This document shows, piece by piece, positions 2,897 through 63,984 of a DNA stretch of 64,000 nt (positions within the stretch are counted from its first letter, which is position 1; the number at the start of each line of letters is the position of its first letter). The stretch spans positions 575 through 64,574 of the forward strand of contig CAYOLW010000003.1 of the NCBI GenBank assembly GCA_964404925.1, given 5' to 3'. The notes below the pieces were generated by a model, which worked only from the letters and a program-made list of their open reading frames with translations, was not told the DNA's origin and did not search any database. The stretch comes from an uncultured Candidatus Saccharibacteria bacterium. GTDB lineage: Bacteria > Patescibacteriota > Minisyncoccia > Phycocordibacterales > UBA9973. The translations under genes were made by a program, and so were the position numbers.

Positions 2897-4165
2897 CTAT
2901 AACTTTAGTATTTTGATTAGTTTGGTTTTATCTTTTATTGGACCAACAATTGCTAGGTTAATATTGGAAGTTCTAAATATCTCCCTGGCTACGTCCCTCA
3001 CCTGCTCGGCAGTCACACTGCCAATCTCTTTTGCTTTTTGGTCGGCGGTTTTTATTTCTTTTTTCAAGACTTCTTGCAATCCGTGGAAATGCGCAATACT
3101 ATCACTGGATTCAAGGTCCAGCTTCATATTACCCACCAAATAATCCTTTACTTTTTGCAACTCTTCTTTAGACACAATCTCTTCGGTTAGCTTTTTACAT
3201 TCAGCTAAAACAGCGACCAATACTTCAGACACACGCTTGTTGTCTACCCCAGCTGAAACCTGGAAATATCCATGGTCAGTATATCCATCATCATAGGCAC
3301 GCACGTAATAGCCCACACCCATTTCTTCACGTAATTTTTGGAAAAGCCGCGAGCTCATTCCCCCACCCAGCACACTAGCTAACACTGAAAGTGCGGCATT
3401 CTTTTTACTGAAAATATCAAAACTACGAAAGGCTAAAACGAAATGAGATTGATCGGTTTTTTTATACTGTGTTATCACGGCTGGCTTTTTTTGCTTTTCT
3501 ACAACCTTTACCTTGGTTCCTTTGTTGCCTTTAGGTATATGACCAAAAACACGAGTAACCTCTGCTAACACTTCAGACTCTTTGACCTGACCTGCTACAA
3601 CCAAAGTAGTCGCGTTCGGTACATAATGCGCACCGTGGTAATTAATAAAATCACTTCTTTTCATCGCGCGCACGTTCTCGCGAGTACCGGCAATGTTCCA
3701 CCCGGCCGGCTCTCTACTATACAAAAGCTCCATAATCATATCCTGCACATGACGATGAGGCATGTCTTCATACATATTTATTTCTTCTACAATCACACCC
3801 TTCTCTTTCTCGATTTCTAAAGCAGGAAAGGTCGAATTCAAATAAACATCGGAAACAACATCAAAAATTTGTTTGAAGTGCCGTGCCTCAGACTTAGCAT
3901 AATACCCGGTAAATTCTTGAGAAGTAAAAGCATTATATTGGCTACCCAATGCATCTAGTTCCCTAGATATATCTATAGCTTTCGGCCTCTTTTCTGTACC
4001 CTTGAAACACATGTGTTCCAAGAAGTGTGATATACCGTTTAATTTTTTAGTCTCATATTTTGAACCTGTTTCTACTAATACCAACACTGTGACTGTTGGA
4101 TTGTCTACCATTGGAATGGTTACCACTGTAAGCCCGTTTTTAAGTTTCTTTTTGGAAAATTTCAT
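2897..4165 (-). CDS. M16-family zinc peptidase (insulinase/pitrilysin-like)
   Basis: Inverted zinc motif HFLEH near the N-terminus (GISHFLEHMCFKGT). Length 422 aa is typical of M16B. Confidence 0.8.
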   Translation of the reverse strand: MKFSKKKLKNGLTVVTIPMVDNPTVTVLVLVETGSKYETKKLNGISHFLEHMCFKGTEKRPKAIDISRELDALGSQYNAFTSQEFTGYYAKSEARHFKQIFDVVSDVYLNSTFPALEIEKEKGVIVEEINMYEDMPHRHVQDMIMELLYSREPAGWNIAGTRENVRAMKRSDFINYHGAHYVPNATTLVVAGQVKESEVLAEVTRVFGHIPKGNKGTKVKVVEKQKKPAVITQYKKTDQSHFVLAFRSFDIFSKKNAALSVLASVLGGGMSSRLFQKLREEMGVGYYVRAYDDGYTDHGYFQVSAGVDNKRVSEVLVAVLAECKKLTEEIVSKEELQKVKDYLVGNMKLDLESSDSIAHFHGLQEVLKKEIKTADQKAKEIGSVTAEQVRDVAREIFRTSNINLAIVGPIKDKTKLIKILKL

Positions 4166-10825: not shown

Positions 10826-11470
10826 TTATATTTCAAAATTTTTAAGTTCCTCTATATACGGTGCGGCAGTAGCATCATTTATGTCTTCTGGTTTAATGTT
10901 ACATTTAGCAAATATTTGGTTTTCTATTTCTTTACCACAATCTACCAAATGCTGACGCTCCAAGTTGTCAAAGCCGCTTCTGCCAGCATACCGCCTGCGG
11001 GCTTCTTCCATACGTTCTTCATACGAAACAATTCCAAAAGGGTTCACTCGCATATCAGCATGATGCATTATTTTTAGCAGCACATCATCGGATGCTGCGT
11101 GTTCACATAAAAGAGTGAAATGATTCTGATCAGCTAATGCCCCAATTTCTTCTGCTAATCCTAACTCCCGGATTATTTGTATGGTTGCATTATGTTCATT
11201 TTCACCATATTTTTCTCTATATTCACCCTGTACAGCTTGCCAATACTCCACCCCTTCTGGTTCAAACATATCTGGAAAAACATCAAACTTGAATTTGAGT
11301 ATATTACCCATATCATGCAGTAGGCATACGGTGACTATTTTATTTTTATCAATCGTATCTCCCTGCCAATTATCACAAATCATCGCTGCTACTGCTGCAA
11401 CCCGCAGCATGTGCATTTGCAGTGTAGGTGGGATTTTATAATTTTTATATATTTCAGAAATCGTCCGCAT
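10826..11470 (-). CDS. HD-domain phosphohydrolase
   Basis: HMLRVAA...LLHDMGN (H...HD motif) and a later H..D pair. 214 aa. Confidence 0.6.
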   Translation of the reverse strand: MRTISEIYKNYKIPPTLQMHMLRVAAVAAMICDNWQGDTIDKNKIVTVCLLHDMGNILKFKFDVFPDMFEPEGVEYWQAVQGEYREKYGENEHNATIQIIRELGLAEEIGALADQNHFTLLCEHAASDDVLLKIMHHADMRVNPFGIVSYEERMEEARRRYAGRSGFDNLERQHLVDCGKEIENQIFAKCNIKPEDINDATAAPYIEELKNFEI

Positions 11471-14400
11471 TATTTTTCAATCTTAATTTTAAATACTAGA
11501 TTTTCTACTTTAATCTCAACACCATCATTAGGGACGAAGGACAGGTCTTTGGCACCAACTGTCTTTACAAAATCATCTTTGAATTTTTCTACTAATTCCT
11601 TTCCGGTGTTATCTGTTTCAATCAACAGACTAACCATATCACTTGGTAATAGATTCATTTGTTTACGGATGTCTTGCACAGCGCGAACCAATTCTCGATA
11701 GTCCCCTTCTTGTTTTAATTCAGGAGTTATTTCTGTATCTATTTTAATTTCTCCAGCCTTCACTTCTTTTACATTCAATTCATCTTTTATAATTTCTATA
11801 TATGAAGCAGCTGGTAACTCAGGCATAAAGAAAGCGGCCAGAGGTTGCCTAACTGGCAAGTTATTTACTTGTCTTTCTTTCATTCCAAGCGAAATGAACT
11901 CTCGAACTTTCTGCATTTCCGCTGTGTCAAAGGCACCCTTTGGTATTTGTGGCCAATTAGACAAATGCACACTCTCTGCGTCACCATCTACTTTCAACTT
12001 CTGCCACACATCTTCGGCGGCAAATGGTGCAAATGGTGCAAGTAGTTTTGCAATATTCTTTAGTACGAAATACAACGTTGCTTTAGCATTAACATCACCT
12101 TCCTTTATTCGATCTCGTGAACGACGCAGATACCAAGTAGACAAATCGCCCATGAATTCGCGCATGGCACGGACTGGCTCAAGCACCTTGTACTCATCCA
12201 TGTTCTTAGTGGTAAGTTCTGTTAGTTCAGCAAGTTTTGCCAATATCCACTGATCAAGCACATTCGCTTCCCCGAGATTGGACCTCAAAGACCCCAGAGG
12301 TCCAACCTCTGCATCCTTTTCTAAATTTTTATCTCTGTACAATTCATAGAAGGCCAGCACATTATAGTAGAGTCCAAAAACTTGGCGATTTAAATCAAGT
12401 ACAGTCTTCTCATCAAAATTCTTAGACTCACCTGGTTGATTAACTGAATACATCCACAGACGCAGAGTATCAACTCCGTATTTTTCAATCATACTCCATG
12501 GGTCAACGATGTTACCTAATGATTTAGACATTTTCTTACCCTTGGCATCGAGCAAGTGACCAAGGCAGATAACATTGCGGTATGCTTTTCCGCGACCCAT
12601 TAGTACACCCACAGCATGTAGCGTGTAGAACCACCCTCGGGTCTGATCGATAGCTTCAGAAATGTAATCAGCTGGGTAGCCAGGACCATCGACGAAATCC
12701 TTGTTTTCAAATGGATAATGATCCTGAGCAAAAGGCATCGCACCCGAGTCGAACCACACATCCATCACTTCTTTAGTGCGATGAAATTCTTCTCCATCTT
12801 TTTCCAAAACAACCTCATCGATATATGGTCGATGGAAATCAAGTTCATAATCTTCATTATGTGGTATTGGTGCAAAATCAAGATCTCGGCATTCTGCATT
12901 TTTAAATCTTTCAAAACCTTTGATAAACACACCCCTGTCTTGATCGGGTACATAGTCATGGCTATTCGGCGTATGTATACCAGAGGCAACAAAGAAAAGC
13001 CAAGCTGTGCCACCATGGGTCACAAATAATATATTTTTATTTTTATATTTTTCTTCTATTTCATACAGTGCTGCGCCTACTCGCTTTAACACATCAGCGA
13101 ATGATTCCCCGCCTGGTATTTTATGTGTAAACCAGTTCGCACCAACGCTCGAAACATAATCATGATAATCACGCCAACTTTTACCATCAAGTTCCCCTGG
13201 GTTAATCTCACCCAAACGCGGGTCTTCTACGACTTGGTCTTGAGACAATCCTAATCTATCACGTAATATTTCGGTTGTTTCTAAGGTGCGAGTAAATGGT
13301 GAAGTTATAATAAGGTCTATTTTTTTATCAGCTAGACTCTCCGCTGTCTTGGCTACATCTGCGCGTCCTGTTTCGGTGAGGTTGTCTTCTGCTTGTTTAC
13401 TGTAGCTCACGAGTCCGCTTTGATTACCCTCGGTGCCGCCGTGGCGCATGACGAAATATTTGTTTCCAGATTTCTTGGTATATTTTTTTAGAGTGTCGAG
13501 TGAATCAACCACAATCTTTTTACCATCACTGGCAAGCCACACCGGCAGGGGTGTTCCCCAATACCTTTCACGTGATATAGCCCAGTCCTTCACTCCATCA
13601 ATCCATTCACCAAATCTTCCCTCGCGAATATGAGACGGCTCCCAGTTAATGGTTTTATTTTCTTCGATAAGTTTCTTTTTTATTTCTGGATCGGTCATAC
13701 GCACATACCAAGAATCGCGTGCGTAGTATATAAGCGCAGTCTTGCAACGCCAACAGTGCGGATATGAGTGCTCATATAGTTCTTTATTGAAATACAGATT
13801 ATTCTCCTGCAAATATTTTATGATATCTACATCAAGAGTTGGTTTACCTTCTTCATTTTTTTCTTTTACAAATCTGCCTTCGAGGAATCCAGTACCCGGG
13901 ATAAATTTACCTTCAAGGTTCACAAGGTGGTGTTTAGGTAGTCCAACCTCGGTGCCGAGAACAAAGTCATCCTGACCGTACATCACCGCCGTATGCACTA
14001 TACCAGTACCATCTTCGGTGGTAACAAAATCAGCTGCATATACTTTGTACGCCCTGCTTTCTAACTTTTCTTTTTCAGTATCTGAAATAGTATCCGCCAT
14101 GTATGGAAAAAGTGGTTCGTATTCAAGACCAACAAGGTCTGAGCCTTTAAATTCAGATAATATTTCATAACCATCCCCTAATATAGACAGCCGAGCTTTT
14201 GCTAAAATTAAACTCTCCGGCTCTTTGAGGTCGGACCTCAAAGATTCCCCGAGGTCCGACCTCTGCCCGCCGGCAATCCTAACTTTTACATAATCAATAT
14301 CCTTTCCCAATGCTAATGCCACGTTGCCAGGCAATGTCCACGGAGTAGTAGTCCAGGCAAGAATATAAGTATTTTCTTGTCCTTTAACTTTAAACTTCAC

Positions 14401-15021
14401 ATACAAAGACAAATCTTTTACATCTTCATACCCTTGAGCAAGCTCGTGTGAAGAAAGCGCAGTCCCGCAGCGAGGACACCAGGGTACAACCTTATAATCC
14501 TTATACAGCAAATTCTGATCGTCTATTCTTTTAACCACACTCCAGAGTGATTCAATATAGCTATTATGATATGTCACATATGGATGCTTCTGGTCTACCC
14601 AGTATCCAATGCGTTCGGTAAATTTGTTCCACTGGTCGAGATACATCCATACGTTTTCTTTACACTCTTTGTTGAATTGAGCTACTCCGTACTCCTCGAT
14701 CATTTTCTTGGAGTTTAATCCGAGCTTTTTCTCTACTTGCAATTCCACCGGTAATCCGTGTGTATCCCATCCGCCTTTACGACGAACATGGAATCCCTGC
14801 ATAGTTTTGTAGCGAGGAATGACGTCTTTGAATGCACGCGCTTCGAGGTGGTGAATGCCAGGGTTACCGTTAGCTGTTGGTGGACCTTCATAAAAGACAA
14901 ACTCTTTACCAGAATTTGCTCGCTCGTCCATCGACTTTTGGAAAATATTATTTTCTTTCCAAAATTCTAATACCATCTCCTCGTTTTGTGCATATGCACT
15001 TTTTTTTATTTCCTCGCTCAT
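11470..15021 (-). CDS. ileS: isoleucyl-tRNA synthetase (type-2/eukaryote-like) carrying an internal histidine-phosphatase-like insertion
   Basis: PPTANGNPGIHH (HIGH), WTTTPWTLPGN (CP1 editing), WGTPLPVW, DVWFDSG, KMSKSLGN (KMSKS). 1183 aa. The insertion is described in the findings. Confidence 0.95.
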   Translation of the reverse strand: MSEEIKKSAYAQNEEMVLEFWKENNIFQKSMDERANSGKEFVFYEGPPTANGNPGIHHLEARAFKDVIPRYKTMQGFHVRRKGGWDTHGLPVELQVEKKLGLNSKKMIEEYGVAQFNKECKENVWMYLDQWNKFTERIGYWVDQKHPYVTYHNSYIESLWSVVKRIDDQNLLYKDYKVVPWCPRCGTALSSHELAQGYEDVKDLSLYVKFKVKGQENTYILAWTTTPWTLPGNVALALGKDIDYVKVRIAGGQRSDLGESLRSDLKEPESLILAKARLSILGDGYEILSEFKGSDLVGLEYEPLFPYMADTISDTEKEKLESRAYKVYAADFVTTEDGTGIVHTAVMYGQDDFVLGTEVGLPKHHLVNLEGKFIPGTGFLEGRFVKEKNEEGKPTLDVDIIKYLQENNLYFNKELYEHSYPHCWRCKTALIYYARDSWYVRMTDPEIKKKLIEENKTINWEPSHIREGRFGEWIDGVKDWAISRERYWGTPLPVWLASDGKKIVVDSLDTLKKYTKKSGNKYFVMRHGGTEGNQSGLVSYSKQAEDNLTETGRADVAKTAESLADKKIDLIITSPFTRTLETTEILRDRLGLSQDQVVEDPRLGEINPGELDGKSWRDYHDYVSSVGANWFTHKIPGGESFADVLKRVGAALYEIEEKYKNKNILFVTHGGTAWLFFVASGIHTPNSHDYVPDQDRGVFIKGFERFKNAECRDLDFAPIPHNEDYELDFHRPYIDEVVLEKDGEEFHRTKEVMDVWFDSGAMPFAQDHYPFENKDFVDGPGYPADYISEAIDQTRGWFYTLHAVGVLMGRGKAYRNVICLGHLLDAKGKKMSKSLGNIVDPWSMIEKYGVDTLRLWMYSVNQPGESKNFDEKTVLDLNRQVFGLYYNVLAFYELYRDKNLEKDAEVGPLGSLRSNLGEANVLDQWILAKLAELTELTTKNMDEYKVLEPVRAMREFMGDLSTWYLRRSRDRIKEGDVNAKATLYFVLKNIAKLLAPFAPFAAEDVWQKLKVDGDAESVHLSNWPQIPKGAFDTAEMQKVREFISLGMKERQVNNLPVRQPLAAFFMPELPAASYIEIIKDELNVKEVKAGEIKIDTEITPELKQEGDYRELVRAVQDIRKQMNLLPSDMVSLLIETDNTGKELVEKFKDDFVKTVGAKDLSFVPNDGVEIKVENLVFKIKIEK
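12273..12308. repeat. in-frame palindromic mini-element inside ileS (gagattggacctc-aaagacccca-gaggtccaacctc)
   Basis: 13-nt arms that are reverse complements with one mismatch around a 10-nt spacer. Reads through in-frame as ...GSLRSNLGEA.... Confidence 0.6.
14225..14261. repeat. in-frame palindromic mini-element inside ileS (gaggtcggacctc-aaagattcccc-gaggtccgacctc)
   Basis: Perfect 13-nt inverted repeat around an 11-nt spacer. Shares the ggacctcaaaga core with the 12273 copy. Encodes ...SDLGESLRSDLKEP.... Confidence 0.65.
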
Positions 15022-15039: not shown

Positions 15040-15250
15040 AATAATTAAAAAAGCTCGCCCTTGAAAAACATAAATGTTTTCCAAGGGCGAGCTTGCAAGT
15101 TCGTTTATGGTGAACTTGTGAACCGCGGTACCACCTTAGTTTGATCTTTTTTATAGCTATTACGGGCCACCCGTCGGGTTCTAGTCAGCTTTCGCCTTTC
15201 TTCCCAAAGCATCAGACATGATGTGTCTTCAAGCGCTTGTATCTTCACAA
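15040..15250 (-). promoter_or_regulatory. T-box riboswitch leader upstream of ileS (probable Ile specifier)
   Basis: On the minus strand, AAACTAAGGTGGTACCGCGG (plus 15123-15142) matches the conserved T-box sequence AAnnnGGGUGGnACCGCG. It is followed by the terminator helix gctcgcccttgg...caagggcgagc + UUUUUU, ~30 nt before the ileS ATG. An AUC-A is present in the 5' half (plus 15219-15222) as a candidate specifier. Confidence 0.7.
15046..15092 (-). terminator. intrinsic terminator of the ileS T-box leader (attenuator)
   Basis: 11-bp stem gctcgcccttg/caagggcgagc with T6 on the transcribed (minus) strand. Confidence 0.7.
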
Positions 15251-15252
15251 TA

Positions 15253-16935
15253 CTACATTTTCTCTGGAGTTTCAATGCCGAGTAGATATAGGCCGTTTTT
15301 GAGCGTGGTATTAAACGCTTTTACAATAGCGAGGTTGTACTGCATTTCTGGGTTAGCTTCATCTATCACTCGCACCCGTCCATACCAAGAATTAAAGGCC
15401 TGAGAAAGCTCGAGTAGATATGCTACCAAATGGTGTGGTTCCCAAAGCGAAATACATTTCTCGACAACCTCCGGGAAACGAACCAAATGCTTTTCTATAT
15501 CGGTAATATTTTCTTTTGGCCCAAATTCAAAAGAAGCATTTGGAACTTTTTCCAAAACAGAATTAGACCGCACAGCGCTATACTGCAAGTACGGACCAGA
15601 GTCTCCCTCAAAAGAAAGTGAAGTCTCAGGATCAAAGTTTATATTTTTACCAGCCATACTTTTCAATATGGCAAATTTCAAAGCAGCCACAGATATCATT
15701 TCTTTAGTCTGCTCTGATAGATCTTTAGCTTTTTCTGTTACTTCTTCTGTTACTGCATCAAGCAAAGTGCTGGCAATCGGTACGCCACCTAAACGAGAAG
15801 ACATTTTCTGCCCCTTGAAGCTCATGCGCCCATGGGTACGATGCACTGTCTTGTCCTGCCAAGTTTTGTTTATTTTACCGGCTGCGTGCACTACAACTTT
15901 AAAATATTCAGACTGTTCGTGGTCAGTGATGAAAATAGATATATCTGGGTTGTATCTTGAGAACTTTAGGAACATTAAACCCACATCTTTCGCCTCATAA
16001 GTCGGATAGCCCTCCTTGTTTATAAACACGCGTGTATGTAGTCCGTCCTGTTCACCTTTGTAAATAGTAGCCCCATCAGACTCTTCAAAAACCTTCCCAA
16101 CGTTTTCGACAACCAACCTCTTGCCTTCTTTGCCGGCTTCACTTTCAAAAATATAAGCGTCAAATTTAGAACCAAGTTTGTCAGACATTGTTTTGAAATA
16201 CGACAAATTTATTTCTTTACCTATTTCATAAGCATCAAGTTCAGGACCTTGGATATGGTCGTAAATCATTTTTGTTATTTCACGTATGCGTGGCTCAATA
16301 CTTGAGTCTTCTTCCATCGCTCGAGTACCCCGTGCGTAACACTCACCAATATAAGTCAGCTTCTCACCCAAGGTATCCAGTGAATTGAGTTTATCCATAC
16401 CATCGAGAAGCATAATATAAATAGCCTTTCCGATACCGAGCGAGACATCTGAGGGGTACGAAATAGCGGTAACCTCTGCACCAGAAAACCGTGCAAAGCG
16501 TGTTATGGATTCTCCTATTGCATTGTTCATCAAGTGACCAATGTGAAAAGGTTTGAATAGGTTGATACTTGTGTGTTCGGTCAAAATTTCCTTACCTTTG
16601 TGTGTGTCTACCCTACCCCAATTTTCGCCCTGGGATAAAATGTTTTTTAGTTCATTAAAAAAATATTCGGATGATAAATAAAAATTAATAAACCCAGGAC
16701 CAGCAACTTCCACTTTGTCTATTTCTGTAATTTTATTTTTATTTAATTCTGCAACAATCTTTTCTGACAACTCTTTTGGGTTCTGTCCAAGTTTCTTTGC
16801 TAAAACCATTGATACATTGCACGAATAATCGCCCATCTTTAAATCAGACGGGTGCTCTAAGGTAATATTATCTACTTCGATATTCAACACTTGAAGTGCA
16901 GAAATTATTATGCTTTTTATTTTATCTTGTATCAT
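15253..16935 (-). CDS. argS: arginyl-tRNA synthetase
   Basis: N-terminal Arg_tRNA_synt_N pattern, HIGH-region PFHIGHLMNNAIG, KMSSRLGG (KMSK-like), C-terminal anticodon-binding domain ending in M. 560 aa. Confidence 0.9.
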   Translation of the reverse strand: MIQDKIKSIIISALQVLNIEVDNITLEHPSDLKMGDYSCNVSMVLAKKLGQNPKELSEKIVAELNKNKITEIDKVEVAGPGFINFYLSSEYFFNELKNILSQGENWGRVDTHKGKEILTEHTSINLFKPFHIGHLMNNAIGESITRFARFSGAEVTAISYPSDVSLGIGKAIYIMLLDGMDKLNSLDTLGEKLTYIGECYARGTRAMEEDSSIEPRIREITKMIYDHIQGPELDAYEIGKEINLSYFKTMSDKLGSKFDAYIFESEAGKEGKRLVVENVGKVFEESDGATIYKGEQDGLHTRVFINKEGYPTYEAKDVGLMFLKFSRYNPDISIFITDHEQSEYFKVVVHAAGKINKTWQDKTVHRTHGRMSFKGQKMSSRLGGVPIASTLLDAVTEEVTEKAKDLSEQTKEMISVAALKFAILKSMAGKNINFDPETSLSFEGDSGPYLQYSAVRSNSVLEKVPNASFEFGPKENITDIEKHLVRFPEVVEKCISLWEPHHLVAYLLELSQAFNSWYGRVRVIDEANPEMQYNLAIVKAFNTTLKNGLYLLGIETPEKM

Positions 16936-28550: not shown

Positions 28551-30224
28551 TTATACTATATCAACAATTCTAAGACGTAACTCTTCTCTACCTCGGAAAC
28601 GAGACAAATCAAAAGTCGCGTATAAATCCACATGCGCACCTTGAGAAATATCTGCTTTAAATGATTCAGGATTAGAGAAAAATGATATTGCTTCGACTTC
28701 TTTGCCTTGTTCATTAACCACAGTAATAGATAAATGTTCCCCGCTGTTATTTTTCCCGAACTGTCGAGCTTTTGTTATTTTTACCTTTTCAAATAAAAAA
28801 ACAGGCTTTGGATTACCCAGACCAAACGGTGCCATTTTACCTATTTCTTTCCAATTCTTCATTGTTACCATGTTTAAATCAAGTTTCAAATCAAAATTTA
28901 TTTCACTTCCTTCAGATGGCTTTTTGACTTTATGAAAGCTTTCGTTTAATGATTCTTCCAGAAAATGAATCTTGTTTGTATGCACACTAAATCCACCTGC
29001 CAGTTCATGCCCACCATAATTAATAAAATATTCAGTACTCTGAGACATCAACTCGACTACAGACACAGACCCAGGAGAACGGCATGAACCCTTAATGACA
29101 TCATTTTCATCTTTGGCCCAAACAAAGACTGGCTTATCGTATTCATCCATAACCTTCCCTGCCACAAGCCCAAGCACCCCCACCTTCCACTTGGGATTAC
29201 CTATTACCACCACATCACCCAACTCACGCTTCTCAAAGCTGTGTTTAACTTCTTTCATGATTGAAAGTACAGTATGCTTACGCTCGTCATTAATTTTTGT
29301 CAGGTGCTCTGCCAAACCTACCGCCTTTTTGTCATCCTTTGATGCCAGTAATTCATACGCCCGCATCGGGTCGTCCATGCGTGAAGCTGCATTGATTCGT
29401 GGAGTCAGCATAAATCCAACATCATCTTCGTTCAAATATTTCTGATCTATCTTCATAATACTCAGCAGTTTTTGCAATCCTGGACGGGGAGATTTACGCA
29501 GAACCATCAATCCAAAATATGCTATAGCCCGATTTTCACCAGTGAGCGGAACCATATCAGAAAGAGTTGCAAGTCCAGCCATATCAAGCAACCACTTTTC
29601 CCAACCTTCTGGAGTTCCCGGACGTTGGACGTCGAGACTCCCAGACGTCCAACGTCCGGGAACCAACCCTTGTACAAGTTTAAACACTACCCCTGCACCA
29701 CACAGCATGGACTCAGGATATTCATCTGTTTTTGGATTTAAAATAGCGAAAGCTTTCGGCAATTTTTCGTGAGGTAAATGGTGATCGGTTACGATGACAT
29801 CTATGCCATACGAATTAGCCAAATCAATTTCTTCTATGGCAGTGGTGCCTAGGTCGATGGTGATTATTAAATTTACATCTTTATCTTTGAACTCCTCTAT
29901 GGCCTCTATGTTTAACCCGTAGCCTTCAGCGTTGCGGCTCGGTATATATATTTCAAAGTTTTTAAAACCAATTTTTTCAAAAAAATCATGTATAATTACC
30001 GCCCCTGGTATACCGTCCGCATCATAATCGGCGTACACCACCACTTTTTCATTAGCATTTATGGCGTGCATTATTCGGGTACAAGCTTTTTCCATATCAC
30101 GCATTAAAAAAGGATCGTGCATATCGCGTTCATAATCTGGGTTTAAAAAAATATCTGCTTCCGCTTCAGTCTTTATCCCTCTCTTTATCAAAAGTTCCCG
30201 TAGTAGTTCATGAAATTTACCCAT
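28551..30224 (-). CDS. recJ: single-stranded-DNA-specific exonuclease RecJ
   Basis: DHH motifs: VVYADYDADGIPG, DVIVTDHH, DHH-associated DHHA1 C-terminal region (GGHELAGGFS). 557 aa. Confidence 0.85.
   Translation of the reverse strand: MGKFHELLRELLIKRGIKTEAEADIFLNPDYERDMHDPFLMRDMEKACTRIMHAINANEKVVVYADYDADGIPGAVIIHDFFEKIGFKNFEIYIPSRNAEGYGLNIEAIEEFKDKDVNLIITIDLGTTAIEEIDLANSYGIDVIVTDHHLPHEKLPKAFAILNPKTDEYPESMLCGAGVVFKLVQGLVPGRWTSGSLDVQRPGTPEGWEKWLLDMAGLATLSDMVPLTGENRAIAYFGLMVLRKSPRPGLQKLLSIMKIDQKYLNEDDVGFMLTPRINAASRMDDPMRAYELLASKDDKKAVGLAEHLTKINDERKHTVLSIMKEVKHSFEKRELGDVVVIGNPKWKVGVLGLVAGKVMDEYDKPVFVWAKDENDVIKGSCRSPGSVSVVELMSQSTEYFINYGGHELAGGFSVHTNKIHFLEESLNESFHKVKKPSEGSEINFDLKLDLNMVTMKNWKEIGKMAPFGLGNPKPVFLFEKVKITKARQFGKNNSGEHLSITVVNEQGKEVEAISFFSNPESFKADISQGAHVDLYATFDLSRFRGREELRLRIVDIV
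29615..29662. repeat. in-frame palindromic mini-element inside recJ (ttcccggacgttggacgtc-gagactccca-gacgtccaacgtccgggaa)
   Basis: Perfect 19-nt inverted repeat around a 10-nt spacer. Translated in-frame as ...PGRWTSGSLDVQRPGTPEG.... Same arm-spacer-arm architecture as the two ileS elements. Confidence 0.65.
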
Positions 30225-41951: not shown

Positions 41952-44399
41952 TTATTGCCACTGACCTGTTAAGTCTGCATGCACTGATGGATTGGCTGCA
42001 TCAACAACTGTAGTTCCAGTAGGAAGTGGTAAATTAAACTTAAATGCACCTGGGTCAGCGGATAAGTTACCAAAAACATAGAATATGTCAGTTCCGGTAT
42101 AAGGCGTACTTTCATTACTGTAACCAGTAGCACCAGTAGATACAATCTTGAATACAGGAAGAACGTTTTGAGGGCTTTGAATTGTTATCGGTTTACTGAA
42201 GTTCACAGTGACTATCATTGATTTAGGGAAATTACCACTATCCCAAACCTTAGTAATTGATAAAACCTTTGGTGCATCAGCATTTTGCACAGTTACAAAA
42301 ACACTGTTTAATGTAAATTGCCCAACCGTGTTAGTGCAACTTAGTTGAAAAATTGTATCCTGTGTTAAGTTATTTATAACAATAGAACCACTTGCAACCT
42401 TCTGCCCCGTCCAAGTAGAAACAGGTGAGCTAGTAGCAGTACAAGGGTTTGAGCCGTTCATATTAGTAGTACTCCAAGTTAATGTAGTGCTACCATTCGT
42501 AACCGGATTAGGGTCTGCAGATAGTGTAATTACTGGATCTGGACCTTGTTGGACTGTTACAATTACAGATTCTGAGATTGAACCTCCTGGACCACTGCAA
42601 TCTATGCTAAATGTTGTATCTGAAGTTAGTGCAGCTTGCGTGTCCCAATTACCACTTGCTGGTCTAGAATAACCTGTAGTTGCCCATCCAGATGAACCAC
42701 CGGTAGATTTACAAGCAGTTACATTTGTAGTTATCCACGTTATTTTTGTTGTACCGTTTGCGTTAGTACTTGAAGTAAGCGACAATGTTGGTTTTATACT
42801 TACAACCACAGAATCAGAAACCATAATACCGTTTGCATTTGTACAATTAATAGTGAAGGTTGTTTGAACATTTAAACCATTAATTGTAGCTGAACCAGCG
42901 GCAACTTCGTGTGCAGTATTCCAAGAAGCTTTGTTTGGCGAACTAGTTCCGAAGCAAGTACTAACATTATTGTTAGTCCAGTACAAACTAAAACTTTCTC
43001 CAGCATCTATAGATAGAGTGTCCACACCCTCTGCTTTTAAATCAACCTCTGACATAATATTTGGAATTGCTACTCCACCATTCTGAAGTGTGTAAATAGC
43101 AATTTTTTTTAGCCCAGGTTCTACTGCTTTTATCCATGCAGCTTCATCAAAACTATGATCATTTTCATCTTCTATAAATACTCCCCATGGATCTGTACCG
43201 TAAAATCCAATGACCTCTGTAGGCCTAAACGTTCCAGTATTTATTTCATTAGAAATTTGTGTAGTAGAAAAATCCTTCGTATTTGGTGTAATGGTAGAAT
43301 TGCTTACCACATAACGCCAAGCGTAATCTTGAGAATAATATTTATTACCTATAATTTCAATTGTACCAATCCAGGCACCTGCCGTTACACCATTATCCCC
43401 TACAGCCAGGGCTAAATTATAATCTTGCGGCAAAGTAAACTTAGTACATTTTTTGTAGTTTTTCCAAGTTGGAATACCATATATTGCTACATTCATGTTT
43501 TTGCAGATAGGTTGTAAATCTGCCACCTTACCATTAGCACCAATTTTATAAGAATATAAAGTAAATACAGCATCAGCAGAAATTTTAAACTCAAAAGGAT
43601 ATCCTGAAAGTGGAATACTCGCATTTGGATTGTTGTAATTAGTCGTTATAGTATTTGACTGCCACCAAGGAGTTGTAGTTGTAGCTAAAATGTTATTGCC
43701 ATTAAGGTAGTAAACAGGCGAAGAAGTAGCAGCTCCAGTGTTAGTAAAATTTTGTGTAAGGTTCTGAGTAAGACCTGAGGTTAGTTGTGATGTGTTTTGT
43801 CCAAAGCTTAAATTCTGACTTTGTGTACTAATGTTTATAGATGAATTTGTGTTTATAGAATTATTAACCAACTGACTGGCGCCTGTTGAATTAACATCGA
43901 TACCAGTATTAGTACTCTGAGTTTGGTTAGTGCTAGACAAAGCTAGTATTGTTGGTTTACTTGCTACGGTCAAAACACTATTTAAGACTTGTTGAGCTGT
44001 TGGATTTAAAGAAGCCTTCCTTAAATTCTGATTTTGGGTTTGATATAAGGAACGCAAATAGGTAAGCGTTTTATTATTTGCAGTACTCAACTTAATACCT
44101 GGATAAATGTTCATGAATTTGAACGTATGTGGTCCAGCAGAACCATCGGGGACCAAACCAGCAAGTTTCTGATAAGCAATAACTGCAGATTTAGTTCCAG
44201 GTCCAAATTTACCATCAACTTTTTTATTATAAAGACCTTGGTTTACTAGATAAGCTTGAAGTGCAGATACTGCTGGACCAAAACTACCAACCTTTAAAAA
44301 CTTTACCCCGGAGTCATTATTCAAAAAAGATGAATCTGTAGCTGCACTGGCAGATATTGAGAGCAAAGAAATAATTAAAATAAAAAGATATTTTTTCAT
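41952..44399 (-). CDS. secreted protein: signal peptide + peptidoglycan-binding domain (PG_binding_1-like) + S/T/N/Q-rich linker + three tandem ~70-aa Cys-pair Ig-like repeats
   Basis: MKKYLFILIISLLSISASA. PGBD: LKVGSFGPAVSALQAYLVNQGLY..DGKFGPGTKSAVIAYQKLAGLVPDG. Ig-like repeats LYWTNNN..C...INCTN, KITWITTNVTAC...IDCSG, TLTWSTTN..C...LSCTN. Confidence 0.6.
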   Translation of the reverse strand: MKKYLFILIISLLSISASAATDSSFLNNDSGVKFLKVGSFGPAVSALQAYLVNQGLYNKKVDGKFGPGTKSAVIAYQKLAGLVPDGSAGPHTFKFMNIYPGIKLSTANNKTLTYLRSLYQTQNQNLRKASLNPTAQQVLNSVLTVASKPTILALSSTNQTQSTNTGIDVNSTGASQLVNNSINTNSSINISTQSQNLSFGQNTSQLTSGLTQNLTQNFTNTGAATSSPVYYLNGNNILATTTTPWWQSNTITTNYNNPNASIPLSGYPFEFKISADAVFTLYSYKIGANGKVADLQPICKNMNVAIYGIPTWKNYKKCTKFTLPQDYNLALAVGDNGVTAGAWIGTIEIIGNKYYSQDYAWRYVVSNSTITPNTKDFSTTQISNEINTGTFRPTEVIGFYGTDPWGVFIEDENDHSFDEAAWIKAVEPGLKKIAIYTLQNGGVAIPNIMSEVDLKAEGVDTLSIDAGESFSLYWTNNNVSTCFGTSSPNKASWNTAHEVAAGSATINGLNVQTTFTINCTNANGIMVSDSVVVSIKPTLSLTSSTNANGTTKITWITTNVTACKSTGGSSGWATTGYSRPASGNWDTQAALTSDTTFSIDCSGPGGSISESVIVTVQQGPDPVITLSADPNPVTNGSTTLTWSTTNMNGSNPCTATSSPVSTWTGQKVASGSIVINNLTQDTIFQLSCTNTVGQFTLNSVFVTVQNADAPKVLSITKVWDSGNFPKSMIVTVNFSKPITIQSPQNVLPVFKIVSTGATGYSNESTPYTGTDIFYVFGNLSADPGAFKFNLPLPTGTTVVDAANPSVHADLTGQWQ

Positions 44400-63378: not shown

Positions 63379-63984
63379 ATGTTAATTCCAACCGTTATTG
63401 AAAAATCACAATTTGGTGAGCGTGCTTATGATATATATTCACGCCTTTTAAGAGATCGTATTATATTCCTAGGTGGCCCAATCGATGATCATGTGGCAAA
63501 CATTGTAATTGCCCAAATACTTTTCCTTGCCAACGAAGATGCAAAGAAAGATATTTATCTGTATATCAATTCCCCTGGTGGTTCAGTATCTGCTGGACTT
63601 GCAATCTATGACACAATGCAGTTTGTAAAACCAGATATATCAACAATCTGTGTTGGTATGGCAGCTTCAATGGGTGCATTCTTGCTCGCAGGTGGTACCA
63701 AAGGTAAAAGGTTTACTCTCCCTAATTCCGAAGTTATGATTCACCAGCCTCATGGTGGCGCAGATGGTCAAGCAACAGACATAGAAATTTCCGCTAAACA
63801 TATTTTGAAACTCCGAGCCCAATTAAATGATATTTTAGCTAAAAATACTGGACAGAAATTAGCTACAATTGAAAAAGATGTTGAACGAGATAATTGGATG
63901 GATGCGTCTGAAGCAAAAAAATACGGCATAGTAGATGACATAGTAACAAAAGACAAAACACCCAACATTAAAACTGATAAATAG
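63379..63984 (+). CDS. clpP: ATP-dependent Clp protease proteolytic subunit
   Basis: [11 protein letters not shown], catalytic triad context [11 protein letters not shown] (Ser), MIHQPHGG (His), ...RDNWM (Asp). 201 aa. Confidence 0.9.

What the first reader, a model, noticed from the sequence alone, without database searches (positions are those of the whole stretch)
12273..14261. Two related palindromic mini-elements inserted in-frame within ileS (RPE-like behaviour)
At 14225-14261 (gaggtcggacctc-aaagattcccc-gaggtccgacctc) and 12273-12308 (gagattggacctc-aaagacccca-gaggtccaacctc) the ileS coding strand contains near-perfect 13-nt inverted repeats around a 10-11 nt spacer. Both share the core ggacctcaaaga. 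Both are multiples of 3 in length and read through as short hydrophilic peptides (..DLGESLRSDLKEP.. and ..GSLRSNLGEA..) in regions that are variable loops of IleRS. GC-rich perfect palindromes inside an AT-rich coding sequence are not expected by chance. They resemble Rickettsia palindromic elements, which are known to insert in-frame into ORFs, or other selfish hairpin repeats.
Basis: seen in the sequence. Interest (0 to 1): 0.6.

Follow-up and report, generated by a model that had tools for sequence, protein, structure and literature searches.

The report
Mobile hairpin repeats inside essential genes
The two GC-rich palindromes in the isoleucyl-tRNA synthetase gene are real copies of a small hairpin-forming repeat that sits in-frame inside housekeeping genes of ultra-small (CPR) bacteria. 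In related genomes the same repeat flanks a hairpin-specific transposase gene, which makes this a gene-dwelling version of the classical "extragenic" REP/RAYT system.

Summary
ileS (11470-15021, minus strand) carries hairpin palindromes at 14227-14263 (13/13 pairs, 11-nt loop) and 12274-12309 (12/13 pairs, 10-nt loop). A third copy lies in recJ (29614-29663, 20-nt arms). Shuffled sequence yields none.

The organism is a Patescibacteria (CPR) bacterium. Both ileS sites are lineage-specific insertions of about 17 and 10 aa, absent from 59 aligned orthologues.

The same element (arms GASGTYSRACSTC, loop 9-12 nt) occurs in 8 loci of CPR genomes and about 50 low-GC metagenome contigs. About 78% of copies lie inside conserved genes such as RNase J, UvrC, GatB, ATP synthase, MnmA and RecJ. 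They occur in either orientation and always read through.

Seven IS200-like Y1 transposase genes from CPR contigs were examined. Six have hairpins with this 13-mer core beside them. The predicted fold's best PDB match is E. coli RayT bound to a REP hairpin.

Best reading: these are REP doublets (REPIN-like) mobilised by a CPR clade of RAYT-like transposases, tolerated in surface loops and translated. Transposition and translation are inferred. No RAYT gene lies in the 64-kb window.

This is a new variant of a known kind. Unexplained features are insertion hot spots and within-genome concerted turnover.

The parts
14227..14263 (-). ileS element 1, core: 13-nt arm, 11-nt loop, 13-nt arm. The coding strand reads GAGGTCGGACCTC-GGGGAATCTTT-GAGGTCCGACCTC and encodes RSDLGESLRSDL.
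   Evidence: The RNA fold is -41.8 kcal/mol, z -7.2.
14217..14273 (-). ileS element 1, extended: outer 5-bp stem CCGGC/GCCGG, an internal loop, then the core. The flanks GGCGGGCA...AAAGAGCC (14219-14271) recur around G-type copies in other genes and genomes.
   Evidence: The structure shows the outer stem. The same flanks occur in L006 (uvrC), L039 and L091 (recJ).
12274..12309 (-). ileS element 2: 13-nt arm, 10-nt loop, 13-nt arm, with one G.U position in the mRNA. The coding strand reads GAGGTTGGACCTC-TGGGGTCTTT-GAGGTCCAATCTC and encodes EVGPLGSLRSNL.
29614..29663 (-). Third family member, in recJ: 20-nt perfect arms and a 10-nt loop. The coding strand reads GTTCCCGGACGTTGGACGTC-TGGGAGTCTC-GACGTCCAACGTCCGGGAAC and encodes VPGRWTSGSLDVQRPGT.
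   Evidence: It lies just after the DHH domain. A RecJ orthologue with 78% identity keeps a remnant of it.
11470..15021 (-). Host gene ileS (1183 aa). Elements 1 and 2 are insertions of about 17 and 10 aa relative to orthologues.
28551..30224 (-). Host gene recJ (557 aa; DHH, DHHA1 and RecJ_OB domains).

Best explanation
The two ileS palindromes and the one in recJ are copies of a dispersed hairpin repeat family of Patescibacteria (CPR).

Anatomy. Each copy is a doublet of a 13-nt unit, GASGTYSRACSTC, which is itself nearly palindromic. The two units lie in inverted orientation around a 9-12 nt spacer, so one strand folds into a 13-22 bp hairpin. This is the anatomy of a REPIN (REP doublet forming a hairpin).

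Likely mechanism. A CPR clade of RAYT-like (IS200-like, Y1/HUH) transposases recognises the unit as a hairpin in single-stranded DNA and copies or moves doublets to new sites. CPR genomes have almost no intergenic space. The surviving copies are therefore those that landed in-frame, without stop codons, in permissive surface loops of proteins, where they are translated as short hydrophilic peptides. They then persist vertically, decay, or are replaced.

Shown here:
- the palindromes and their non-chance status;
- the family relationship;
- the insertion status in IleRS;
- the spread of the family across CPR;
- the predominantly intragenic location;
- the physical association of the same 13-mer core with Y1 transposase genes in related CPR contigs;
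- the RayT-like fold of that protein.

Inferred:
- that the enzyme mobilises these copies;
- that recognition occurs on single-stranded DNA;
- that the inserts are translated;
- that this genome encodes such an enzyme, since none lies in the window.
For: Reality and chance.

Family:
- The three window copies align arm for arm and loop for loop.
- A scan of species-representative genomes gave 12 hits. Eight are in CPR MAGs and extend to full palindromes. The four in high-GC non-CPR genomes do not.
- A metagenome scan gave 50 low-GC contigs with full palindromes.
- At the arm position not fixed by the search pattern, pairing is perfect: T:A in 35 copies, C:G in 25, and no mismatch.

Insertion: both ileS sites are +17 aa and +10 aa relative to 59 orthologues of 62-71% identity. 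Among 120 IleRS orthologues, only one other (P0062) carries a family copy, at site 2.

Location:
- 47 of 60 unique copies lie well inside large ORFs.
- 22 are in the same orientation as the gene and 25 are opposite.
- Host genes include RNase J, UvrC, GatB, ATP synthase, MnmA and RecJ.

Within-genome subfamilies: the loops are similar among the 3 window copies and among the 7 copies of one Saccharibacteria MAG, but differ between organisms.

Transposase link:
- L100 holds a Y1_Tnp gene (Pfam 24 bits against a cutoff of 23; NCBIfam REP_Tyr_transpos 27 bits, below its cutoff of 80). It is flanked on both sides by CCAGACGTTGGACGTCTG palindromes, whose core is identical to the window recJ arm. It also carries one copy in-frame.
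- Homologues occur in L034, L056 and L004.
- Three further homologues were fetched by protein identity alone (L145, L146, L147). All are flanked on both sides by hairpins with core GAGGTT[CG][AG]ACCTC or GAAGTTSAACTTC, which matches the window ileS arms at 12 of 13 positions.
- 7860 homologues have E<=1e-10. Every source name among the listed hits except one is a CPR lineage.
- The HUH and Tyr motifs are invariant in 30 aligned sequences.
- The predicted structure (pLDDT 81) has as best PDB match 4ER8, RayT bound to a REP hairpin, at E 3.4e-6. IS608 and ISDra2 TnpA come next.
Against: - No RAYT homologue lies in the 64-kb window. The rest of this genome could not be fetched, so the link is by homology to other CPR genomes.
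- The Pfam score is marginal and the NCBIfam score is far below its cutoff.
- Classical REPs are extragenic and carry an unpaired GTAG or CGTC tag at the foot of the hairpin. Here the conserved bases form the apex of each unit, and most copies are intragenic.
- One RAYT-like gene (L004) is flanked by unrelated palindromes.
- Copies at orthologous sites stay perfectly palindromic in species whose host proteins are only about 75% identical, and they carry compensatory changes. Simple selfish decay does not predict this.
- The strong reading-frame bias (DVGR/DVQR frame in 30 of 35 C-type copies) is unexplained.
- No direct evidence of transposition or translation was available.
Confidence: 0.75

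Rival explanations
1. The hairpins are host-beneficial cis-elements. They would be either a paired binding site for a dimeric or tetrameric DNA-binding protein (four GASGTC half-sites) or an mRNA hairpin that tunes translation or stability. Selection would maintain them; mobility would not be needed.
For: - All four hexamer half-sites co-vary: GACGTC, GAGGTC/GACCTC and GGTGTY/ACACC types.
- Arms remain perfect at orthologous sites in species whose host proteins are 56-89% identical.
- The two variant copies in L144 gatB share the same derived core.
Against: - Distribution is sporadic. 117 of 120 IleRS orthologues and 62 of 120 GatB orthologues lack any insert at these sites.
- Copies decay (P0062/L014; the L091 remnant).
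- Positions coincide with indel-tolerant loops of unrelated genes rather than with regulatory positions.
- There is no orientation bias relative to transcription (22 against 25).
- The absence of G.T pairs argues against RNA-structure selection.
- The same core flanks transposase genes.
Confidence: 0.1
2. The palindromes arose in place by replication template switching (quasi-palindrome extension or correction) in repair-poor CPR genomes, without any mobile element.
For: - Complementarity is perfect.
- Stems often extend beyond the conserved core, outward into variable flanks and inward into the loop (37 of 60 copies have 3 or more extra outward pairs).
- Compensatory double changes are seen.
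Against: - The same 13-mer arms, and for the G-type the same 8-nt non-palindromic flanks, recur in unrelated genes and in different classes of CPR. Local events cannot produce this.
- The association with Y1 transposase genes is not explained.

Template switching may still be what keeps the copies perfect.
Confidence: 0.05
3. The conserved entity is a peptide motif (for example DVGRPxxGRPTS or RSDLxxxLRSDL) selected at the protein level, and the DNA palindrome is incidental.
For: There is a strong frame bias among C-type copies (30 of 35 in the DVGR/DVQR frame). The same peptide is kept at orthologous sites.
Against: - The same DNA is read in three frames and on both strands, giving unrelated peptides: RSDL.., EVGP.., GRWTS.., DVGR...
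- Codon third positions within the arms are invariant in AT-rich genomes.
- Intergenic copies exist, including those flanking the transposase genes.
Confidence: 0.03
4. They are members of the Rickettsia palindromic element family, or MITEs derived from a DDE-type insertion sequence.
For: The behaviour is the same: in-frame insertion into essential genes.
Against: - The host is CPR, not Rickettsiales.
- The size is 36-57 nt, against roughly 100-150 bp for RPE-1 (from my own knowledge).
- The flanks are inverted complements, not direct target-site duplications.
- The associated gene is a Y1/HUH transposase.
Confidence: 0.03
5. They are an assembly or amplification artefact, such as a fold-back chimera.
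For: None specific. Perfect palindromes can arise in MDA or chimeric assemblies.
Against: - The ileS copies are identical in a second assembly (L001).
- The reading frames are preserved.
- The same family appears in dozens of independent metagenomes and at orthologous sites.
Confidence: 0.01

Closest known systems
REPIN/RAYT systems of Pseudomonas and Enterobacteria (Bertels & Rainey 2011, PMC3116915 and PMC3337134; Bertels et al. 2017, PMC5581495; E. coli RayT structure 4ER8)
   Same: - A short palindromic unit arranged as inverted doublets that form a hairpin.
- Dispersed at unlinked loci, with genome-specific subfamilies.
- A Y1/HUH transposase gene flanked by the same units.
- The best structural match of that protein is RayT bound to a REP hairpin.
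   Different: - About 78% of copies are inside protein-coding genes and read through in-frame. Classical REPINs are extragenic.
- Doublets are much shorter: 35-57 nt, against the roughly 70-110 nt I recall for Pseudomonas REPINs (from memory).
- The conserved bases form the apex of each unit, not a GTAG tag at the foot.
- The transposase is only distantly related: 27 bits against the NCBIfam cutoff of 80, and no PDB hit by sequence.
- The host phylum is Patescibacteria, for which I found no report.
Intragenic GTAG/CGTC-tagged REPs, including R. conorii RPE-4 and RPE-6 (Di Nocera et al. 2013, PMC3733652)
   Same: - Small REP-type palindromes found inside ORFs, often as dimers, encoding 20-30 aa.
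- Enriched in replication/repair genes and tRNA synthetases.
- A CGTC motif that varies to CCTC. The window arms end in CGTC (recJ copy) or CCTC (ileS copies).
   Different: - Those REPs have 8-9 bp stems, 4-5 nt loops, an unpaired tag and a CCA tail. Here each unit has a 5-6 bp self-stem, and the doublet forms the stable hairpin.
- In those genomes intragenic copies are a minority. Here they are the majority.
- CGTC REPs were reported to lack a dedicated transposase.
Rickettsia palindromic elements (RPE-1)
   Same: A selfish palindromic repeat inserted in-frame into essential genes of a reduced genome and tolerated in surface loops.
   Different: The host lineage differs. RPE-1 is roughly three times longer (from memory). 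No transposase is known for RPE-1. Sequence relatedness was not tested.
Coding palindromes of Nematomorpha mitochondrial genes (Mikhailov et al. 2019, PMC6649704) and mobile GC clusters of yeast mitochondria
   Same: Perfect inverted repeats embedded in protein-coding sequence and translated, GC-rich in an AT-rich genome.
   Different: Those are organellar, up to 284 bp long, and not a dispersed family tied to a Y1 transposase. The yeast GC-cluster comparison rests on my own knowledge.

Membership tests
REP/REPIN-RAYT system | A short palindromic unit repeated at unlinked loci of one genome | tested here: met
   There are 3 copies in two genes within 64 kb, with 0 expected by chance. One Saccharibacteria MAG has 7 copies in about 39 kb held. 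Whole-genome copy number for this organism could not be obtained.
REP/REPIN-RAYT system | Units arranged as inverted doublets that fold into one hairpin (REPIN) | tested here: met
   All three window copies are arm-loop-arm with 13-20 bp stems. The same holds for 60 unique copies elsewhere. Single units also exist, for example in L008/L125 and flanking the transposase genes.
REP/REPIN-RAYT system | Located in extragenic space | tested here: not met
   47 of 60 unique copies lie well inside large ORFs, and 50 of 60 lie within stop-to-stop frames of at least 100 aa. All three window copies are intragenic.
REP/REPIN-RAYT system | A RAYT gene flanked by the same REP units | tested here: inconclusive
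   Met in related CPR contigs. Six of 7 Y1 genes examined have family-core hairpins beside them: L100, L056, L145, L146 and L147 on both sides, and L034 on one side plus one copy inside the gene. Not met in the window, which holds no homologue. The rest of the genome could not be reached.
REP/REPIN-RAYT system | The associated protein is a Y1/HUH transposase of the RayT type | tested here: met
   Pfam Y1_Tnp scores 24 bits against a cutoff of 23, and all 120 listed homologues carry a precomputed PF01797 hit. HUH and Tyr motifs are invariant. The best fold match is 4ER8 RayT at E 3.4e-6, ahead of IS608 and ISDra2 TnpA. Caveat: the NCBIfam REP_Tyr_transpos score is 27 bits against a cutoff of 80.
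REP/REPIN-RAYT system | A conserved unpaired GTAG or CGTC tetranucleotide at the foot of the REP hairpin | tested here: not met
   CGTC (or CCTC) is present, but it is part of the paired arm and apex of each unit. The flanks at the foot vary between copies. The published geometry is quoted.
REP/REPIN-RAYT system | RAYT-dependent cleavage and mobility of the repeat | not testable with these tools
   This needs biochemistry or strain-resolved population data.
Rickettsia palindromic elements (RPE) | Host in Rickettsia/Rickettsiales | tested here: not met
   Among the 120 listed IleRS homologues, all source names but one are Paceibacteria, Nomurabacteria, Minisyncoccia, Patescibacteria or plain 'bacterium'. 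One MAG is labelled Burkholderiales.
Rickettsia palindromic elements (RPE) | In-frame insertion into ORFs at permissive sites | tested here: met
   Translation itself was not tested.
Rickettsia palindromic elements (RPE) | Sequence and length match to the RPE consensus (about 100-150 bp for RPE-1) | not tested
   No RPE sequences were compared. The lengths here are 36-57 nt.
MITE (non-autonomous derivative of a DDE insertion sequence) | Terminal inverted repeats bounded by a direct target-site duplication | tested here: not met
   The flanks next to the arms are inverted complements (CA..TG, CG..CG, up to 8 extra pairs), not direct repeats.

The most novel reading that the evidence does not exclude
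In CPR bacteria a REPIN-RAYT-type replicator has moved from intergenic DNA into the coding sequence of essential genes. It occupies a small set of hot-spot protein loops for long evolutionary times. Copies at those fixed sites are overwritten in concert with the genome's current master sequence. This would imply that the Y1 enzyme inserts into, or replaces, pre-existing hairpins. It would then act as a natural generator of in-frame peptide insertions that shapes protein evolution in streamlined genomes.
Probability: 0.3. Interest if true: 0.75.

Novelty: new variant of a known kind. Interest (0 to 1): 0.62.

Why it matters
REP elements are defined as extragenic, and their RAYT partners have been described in the groups covered by the papers read here. 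This evidence points to a large, undescribed REP/RAYT-like system in the Candidate Phyla Radiation whose copies live mainly inside essential genes and are read through.

If confirmed, four things follow:
- It explains a class of odd hydrophilic insertions and length variation in CPR proteins.
- It offers an explanation for the many short contigs on which these "transposase" genes are found, although this was not tested.
- It gives a tractable case of a selfish replicator coexisting with a minimal genome.
- It provides natural examples of where essential enzymes such as IleRS, GatB, RecJ, RNase J and ATP synthase tolerate 10-17 residue insertions.

The concerted turnover at fixed sites could reveal a hairpin-targeted insertion mechanism of Y1 transposases.

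Tried and rejected
- Rfam. No family reached its gathering score in the whole window. In the ileS region the only match with E up to 1 was a chance rli40 hit at 15.7 bits.
- Viral contigs. The arm pattern gave 6 hits, all on contigs of 62-69% GC, and none was recovered as a full palindrome.
- PDB by sequence. A single RAYT-like protein gave nothing relevant. A 30-sequence profile gave only E about 0.3 to ISDra2 TnpA around the HUH motif. The fold search was needed.
- Extending the window. Looking up the window-edge proteins (306-1796 and ClpP 63379-63984) found no record. The genome's other contigs and any RAYT gene could not be examined. The window's genome is apparently not in the species-representative collection, since none of the 12 hits corresponds to the window copies.
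- The single arm-like 13-mer at 42574 has no partner and is taken as chance.
- Literature. Searches for palindromic or in-frame repeats in CPR, Patescibacteria or Saccharibacteria, and for RAYT/REPIN together with CPR terms, surfaced no paper describing this among the top-ranked results.

Ideas considered and set aside:
- Archaeal-type bulge-helix-bulge introns or translational bypass. The ORFs read through in-frame and the organism is bacterial.
- DNA uptake sequences. The density of about 1 per 20 kb is too low, and units occur almost only as pairs.
- parS, matS or operator-like sites. The copies are insertions at permissive loops of unrelated genes.
- Integron attC and protelomerase sites. 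There is no sequence or context match; this was judged from memory only.
- Strict membership of Di Nocera's CGTC REP families. The geometry differs.
Full report
**1. The observation**

The window's largest ORF (11470-15021, minus strand, 1183 aa) is an isoleucyl-tRNA synthetase. Pfam finds tRNA-synt_1, Anticodon_1 and DUF5915.

Both reported palindromes are present, 1-2 nt from the stated coordinates:
- 14227-14263: GAGGTCGGACCTC / AAAGATTCCCC / GAGGTCCGACCTC, 13 of 13 positions complementary.
- 12274-12309: GAGATTGGACCTC / AAAGACCCCA / GAGGTCCAACCTC, 12 of 13.

They are 37 and 36 nt long, so the statement that both are multiples of three is wrong for the first.

Chance is excluded by three tests:
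- The arm motif gives 8 matches against 0.29 expected.
- An arm-loop-arm pattern gives 3 matches against 0.00.
- A relaxed paired-arm scan gives 3 hits against none in 30 shuffles.

As RNA the three copies fold at -41.8, -23.1 and -45.2 kcal/mol, with z-scores of -7.2, -3.0 and -6.5. Both ileS copies also occur in an independent assembly (L001).

**2. A third copy and the anatomy of the element**

An inverted-repeat scan found a perfect palindrome with 20-nt arms and a 10-nt loop at 29614-29663, inside recJ. On the coding strand the three copies align as follows:

| Copy | 5' arm | Loop | 3' arm |
|---|---|---|---|
| ileS-1 | GAGGTCGGACCTC | GGGGAATCTTT | GAGGTCCGACCTC |
| ileS-2 | GAGGTTGGACCTC | TGGGGTCTTT | GAGGTCCAATCTC |
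| recJ | GACGTTGGACGTC | TGGGAGTCTC | GACGTCCAACGTC |

Each 13-nt arm is itself nearly palindromic (GASGTC-n-GACSTC), so an element consists of four related hexamers.

The ileS-1 copy also has an outer 5-bp stem and non-palindromic flanks (GGCGGGCA...AAAGAGCC). These flanks recur around G-type copies in other genes and genomes. No further copies or degenerate relics were detected in the window.

**3. Organism and insertion status**

The 120 best IleRS homologues are 61-71% identical. All source names among them but one are Paceibacteria, Nomurabacteria, Minisyncoccia, Patescibacteria or plain "bacterium". The genome is therefore a CPR bacterium, not a Rickettsia.

In an alignment with 59 of these orthologues, the window protein has 23 residues where most have 6 (site 1, +17 aa). 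At site 2 it has 18 where most have 8 (+10 aa). Both sites are indel-variable in other lineages.

A scan of all 120 for arm-encoded tetrapeptide pairs found only the window protein (two sites) and P0062. P0062 carries an AT-decayed copy, AAGGTCTGACCTT-AAATCTTTAAA-AAGGTCTGACCTT, at site 2.

**4. The family outside the window**

*Species-representative genomes.* The arm-loop-arm pattern matched 12 loci. Eight are in CPR MAGs: five contigs of one Saccharibacteria MAG, one contig of another Saccharibacteria MAG, and two Paceibacterota. All eight extend to full palindromes beyond the pattern. The four hits in high-GC non-CPR genomes do not.

Fifty loci of 28-48% GC carry full palindromes. Nearly all the rest are from high-GC contigs and do not extend.

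*Statistics on 60 unique copies:*
- 47 lie well inside large ORFs.
- Orientation relative to the gene is 22 same and 25 opposite.
- Loops are 9-12 nt.
- Stems frequently extend outward, with 3 or more extra pairs in 37 of 60 copies, and also inward.
- At the arm position the search pattern left free, pairing is T:A in 35 copies, C:G in 25, and never a mismatch or G.T.

*Host genes checked by Pfam.* These are conserved housekeeping genes: RNase J, UvrC (two copies), GatB, ATP synthase alpha/beta, MnmA (two copies, in opposite orientations), a glycerate-kinase-like protein and RecJ.

*Frames.* The same DNA is read in different frames and on both strands, giving unrelated peptides such as RSDL.., EVGP.., GRWTS.. 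and DVGR..RPTS. The conserved entity is therefore the DNA.

*Subfamilies.* Loops resemble each other within a genome. The window copies share GGGnnTCT and the Saccharibacteria MAG shares GGGrwTCT. Loops differ between organisms. This is what within-genome amplification of a master copy predicts.

**5. Hot spots, persistence and turnover**

Clustering the host proteins showed many cases in which orthologues of 56-89% identity from different organisms carry a copy at the same position and in the same frame. Examples are GatB, ATP synthase, RNase J and several others.

For an unbiased view I collected 120 GatB orthologues by protein homology:
- 62 have no insert at the loop after HLEEDTxxNKH.
- 53 have inserts of 6 or more extra residues.
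- 17 of those have family-type peptides.
- The rest look like products of other palindromes.

The DNA of three of them, chosen by protein only, showed the following:
- A perfect 20-bp stem (L142).
- A perfect 14-bp palindrome with a compensated double change, GACGTCGGACAAC / GTTGTCCGACGTC (L143).
- A perfect 18-bp palindrome with all four hexamers changed, GGTGTTGGACACC / GGTGTCCAACACC (L144).

L144 carries the same derived core at a second site 750 nt downstream in gatB. L008/L125 has the standard GACGT core at both of those sites.

A RecJ orthologue of 78% identity (L091) keeps the 5' half of the window's recJ element. It has a G-type element where the 3' half should be.

These data show long persistence at a few permissive or preferred sites. 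They also show concerted change of copies within a genome and nesting of new copies in old ones. I do not have a tested explanation for these three features.

**6. The transposase link**

Locus L100 came from the DNA scan. It holds an ORF with YHIYNRG, PNHFHF (HUH) and LFQGRFK motifs. The ORF matches Pfam Y1_Tnp (24 bits, cutoff 23). It also matches NCBIfam "REP-associated tyrosine transposase" at 27 bits, below the cutoff of 80. The ORF is flanked on both sides by CCAGACGTTGGACGTCTG palindromes, whose core is identical to the window recJ arm. It also carries one copy in-frame.

Homologues occur in three other element-bearing loci:
- In L034 a copy sits inside the gene and a degenerate one lies upstream.
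- In L056 the gene is flanked on both sides by GAGGTTGAACCTT...AAGGTTCAACCTC units, whose spacer resembles that of the intragenic copy 2 kb away.
- In L004 the gene is flanked by unrelated palindromes.

The family has 7860 members at E<=1e-10. Every source name among the listed hits except one is a CPR lineage, and many members sit on very short contigs.

Three members were fetched purely by protein identity (L145, L146, L147). All are flanked on both sides by hairpins whose apex is GAGGTT[CG][AG]ACCTC or GAAGTTSAACTTC. This matches the window ileS arms at 12 of 13 positions.

HUH and the YIHxN tyrosine motif are invariant in 30 aligned members. The AlphaFold model (pLDDT 81, pTM 0.81) has as best PDB match 4ER8, "REP associated tyrosine transposase bound to a REP hairpin". 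The scores are E 3.4e-6 and a target-normalised TM-score of 0.69. IS608, ISDra2 and IS200 TnpA follow.

**7. Interpretation**

The anatomy is that of REPINs, and the genetic association is that of REP/RAYT systems. Three papers define these features:
- REPINs are two REPs in inverted orientation around a spacer (PMC3337134 abstract).
- Intragenic REPs, including R. conorii RPE-4 and RPE-6, are known but form a minority (PMC3733652).

The most likely mechanism is recognition of the unit as a hairpin in single-stranded DNA by the Y1 enzyme. Doublets would then be spread to new sites. Selection would keep only in-frame, stop-free insertions in tolerant loops. That part is inference. No RAYT homologue lies in this window, and I could not reach the rest of the genome.

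The perfect Watson-Crick symmetry without G.T pairs, and the lack of orientation bias, argue for a DNA-level constraint rather than selection on mRNA structure. That constraint could be recognition of both arms, or intra-palindrome correction.

**8. Membership and novelty**

As a REP/RAYT system:
- Four features are met: repetition, doublet hairpins, flanking of a Y1 gene (in relatives), and a RayT-like fold.
- Two features are not met: extragenic location and an unpaired GTAG or CGTC tag at the hairpin foot.

It is not an RPE by host or size, and not a MITE, since the flanks are inverted rather than direct. I found no paper linking RAYT or REPIN to CPR, nor one describing coding palindromes in CPR. 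Rfam has nothing.

I rate it a new variant of a known kind. It is real and widespread in an understudied phylum. Three features would interest specialists in mobile DNA: predominantly intragenic copies, hot-spot recurrence and concerted turnover.

Noticed in passing
window 12994-13455 (minus strand; IleRS aa 523-676): A complete histidine-phosphatase (PGAM-like, PF00300, E 5e-33) domain is inserted inside the catalytic domain of IleRS. All 120 closest CPR IleRS homologues carry it. A literature search for IleRS plus histidine phosphatase found nothing relevant.
   Followed up: partly
window 10826-11470 (minus strand), directly downstream of ileS: An HD-domain gene (PF01966) starts at the ileS stop codon. 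In several orthologues (P0052, P0078, P0080, P0100; 1306-1348 aa) the HD domain is fused to IleRS.
   Followed up: no
window 15051-15094: An intergenic palindrome with 21-nt arms (AAGCTCGCCCTTGAAAAACAT / ATGTTTTCCAAGGGCGAGCTT, 2-nt spacer) lies between argS and the ileS start. It is unrelated to the family. Similar CTCGCCC...GGGCGAG hairpins occur in L142 and L146. It could be a terminator or an operator.
   Followed up: no
L014:5691-5715 and 1392-1418; L015:12842-12866; L142:14532-14554 and 16539-16561: A second, unrelated palindrome family (CCCCTCTCCTT-AAT-AAGGAGAGGGG) also sits in CPR genes. In P0058 IleRS it occupies the same site 2 as the window's element, and another palindrome occupies site 1.
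   Followed up: partly
GatB orthologues P0121-P0240; loci L008, L078, L085, L089, L142-L144: One GatB loop (after HLEEDTxxNKH) carries inserts in 53 of 120 orthologues. The inserts derive from several palindrome families, so this is an insertion hot spot.
   Followed up: yes
L144:10388-10423 and 11159-11171; L008:340-375 and 1072-1084: Two copies in the same gatB gene share the same derived core within a genome: GGTGT..ACACC in L144 and GACGT..ACGTC in L008. This is concerted change at fixed sites.
   Followed up: partly
L091:12900-13000 (recJ orthologue): The 5' half of the C-type element seen in the window's recJ is retained here. A G-type element with the GGCGGgaA...GAGGAGCC flanks replaces the 3' half.
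   Followed up: partly
60 unique copies in loci L002-L135: 30 of 35 intragenic C-type copies are read in the frame GAC GTY GGA CGT (DVGR/DVQR), regardless of strand. The cause, whether peptide tolerance or targeting, is unknown.
   Followed up: no
L126:2936-2948 and 4085-4097: Two palindromes built on the family core (AATATTGGGACGTCGGACGTCCCAATATT) bracket a 1.1-kb segment with two small ORFs of 130 and 210 aa, of unknown relation to the element.
   Followed up: no
window 306-59109: Nearly all genes over 59 kb are on the minus strand, and GC skew is negative throughout. The common orientation of the three window copies therefore cannot distinguish a transcription bias from a replication bias.
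   Followed up: no
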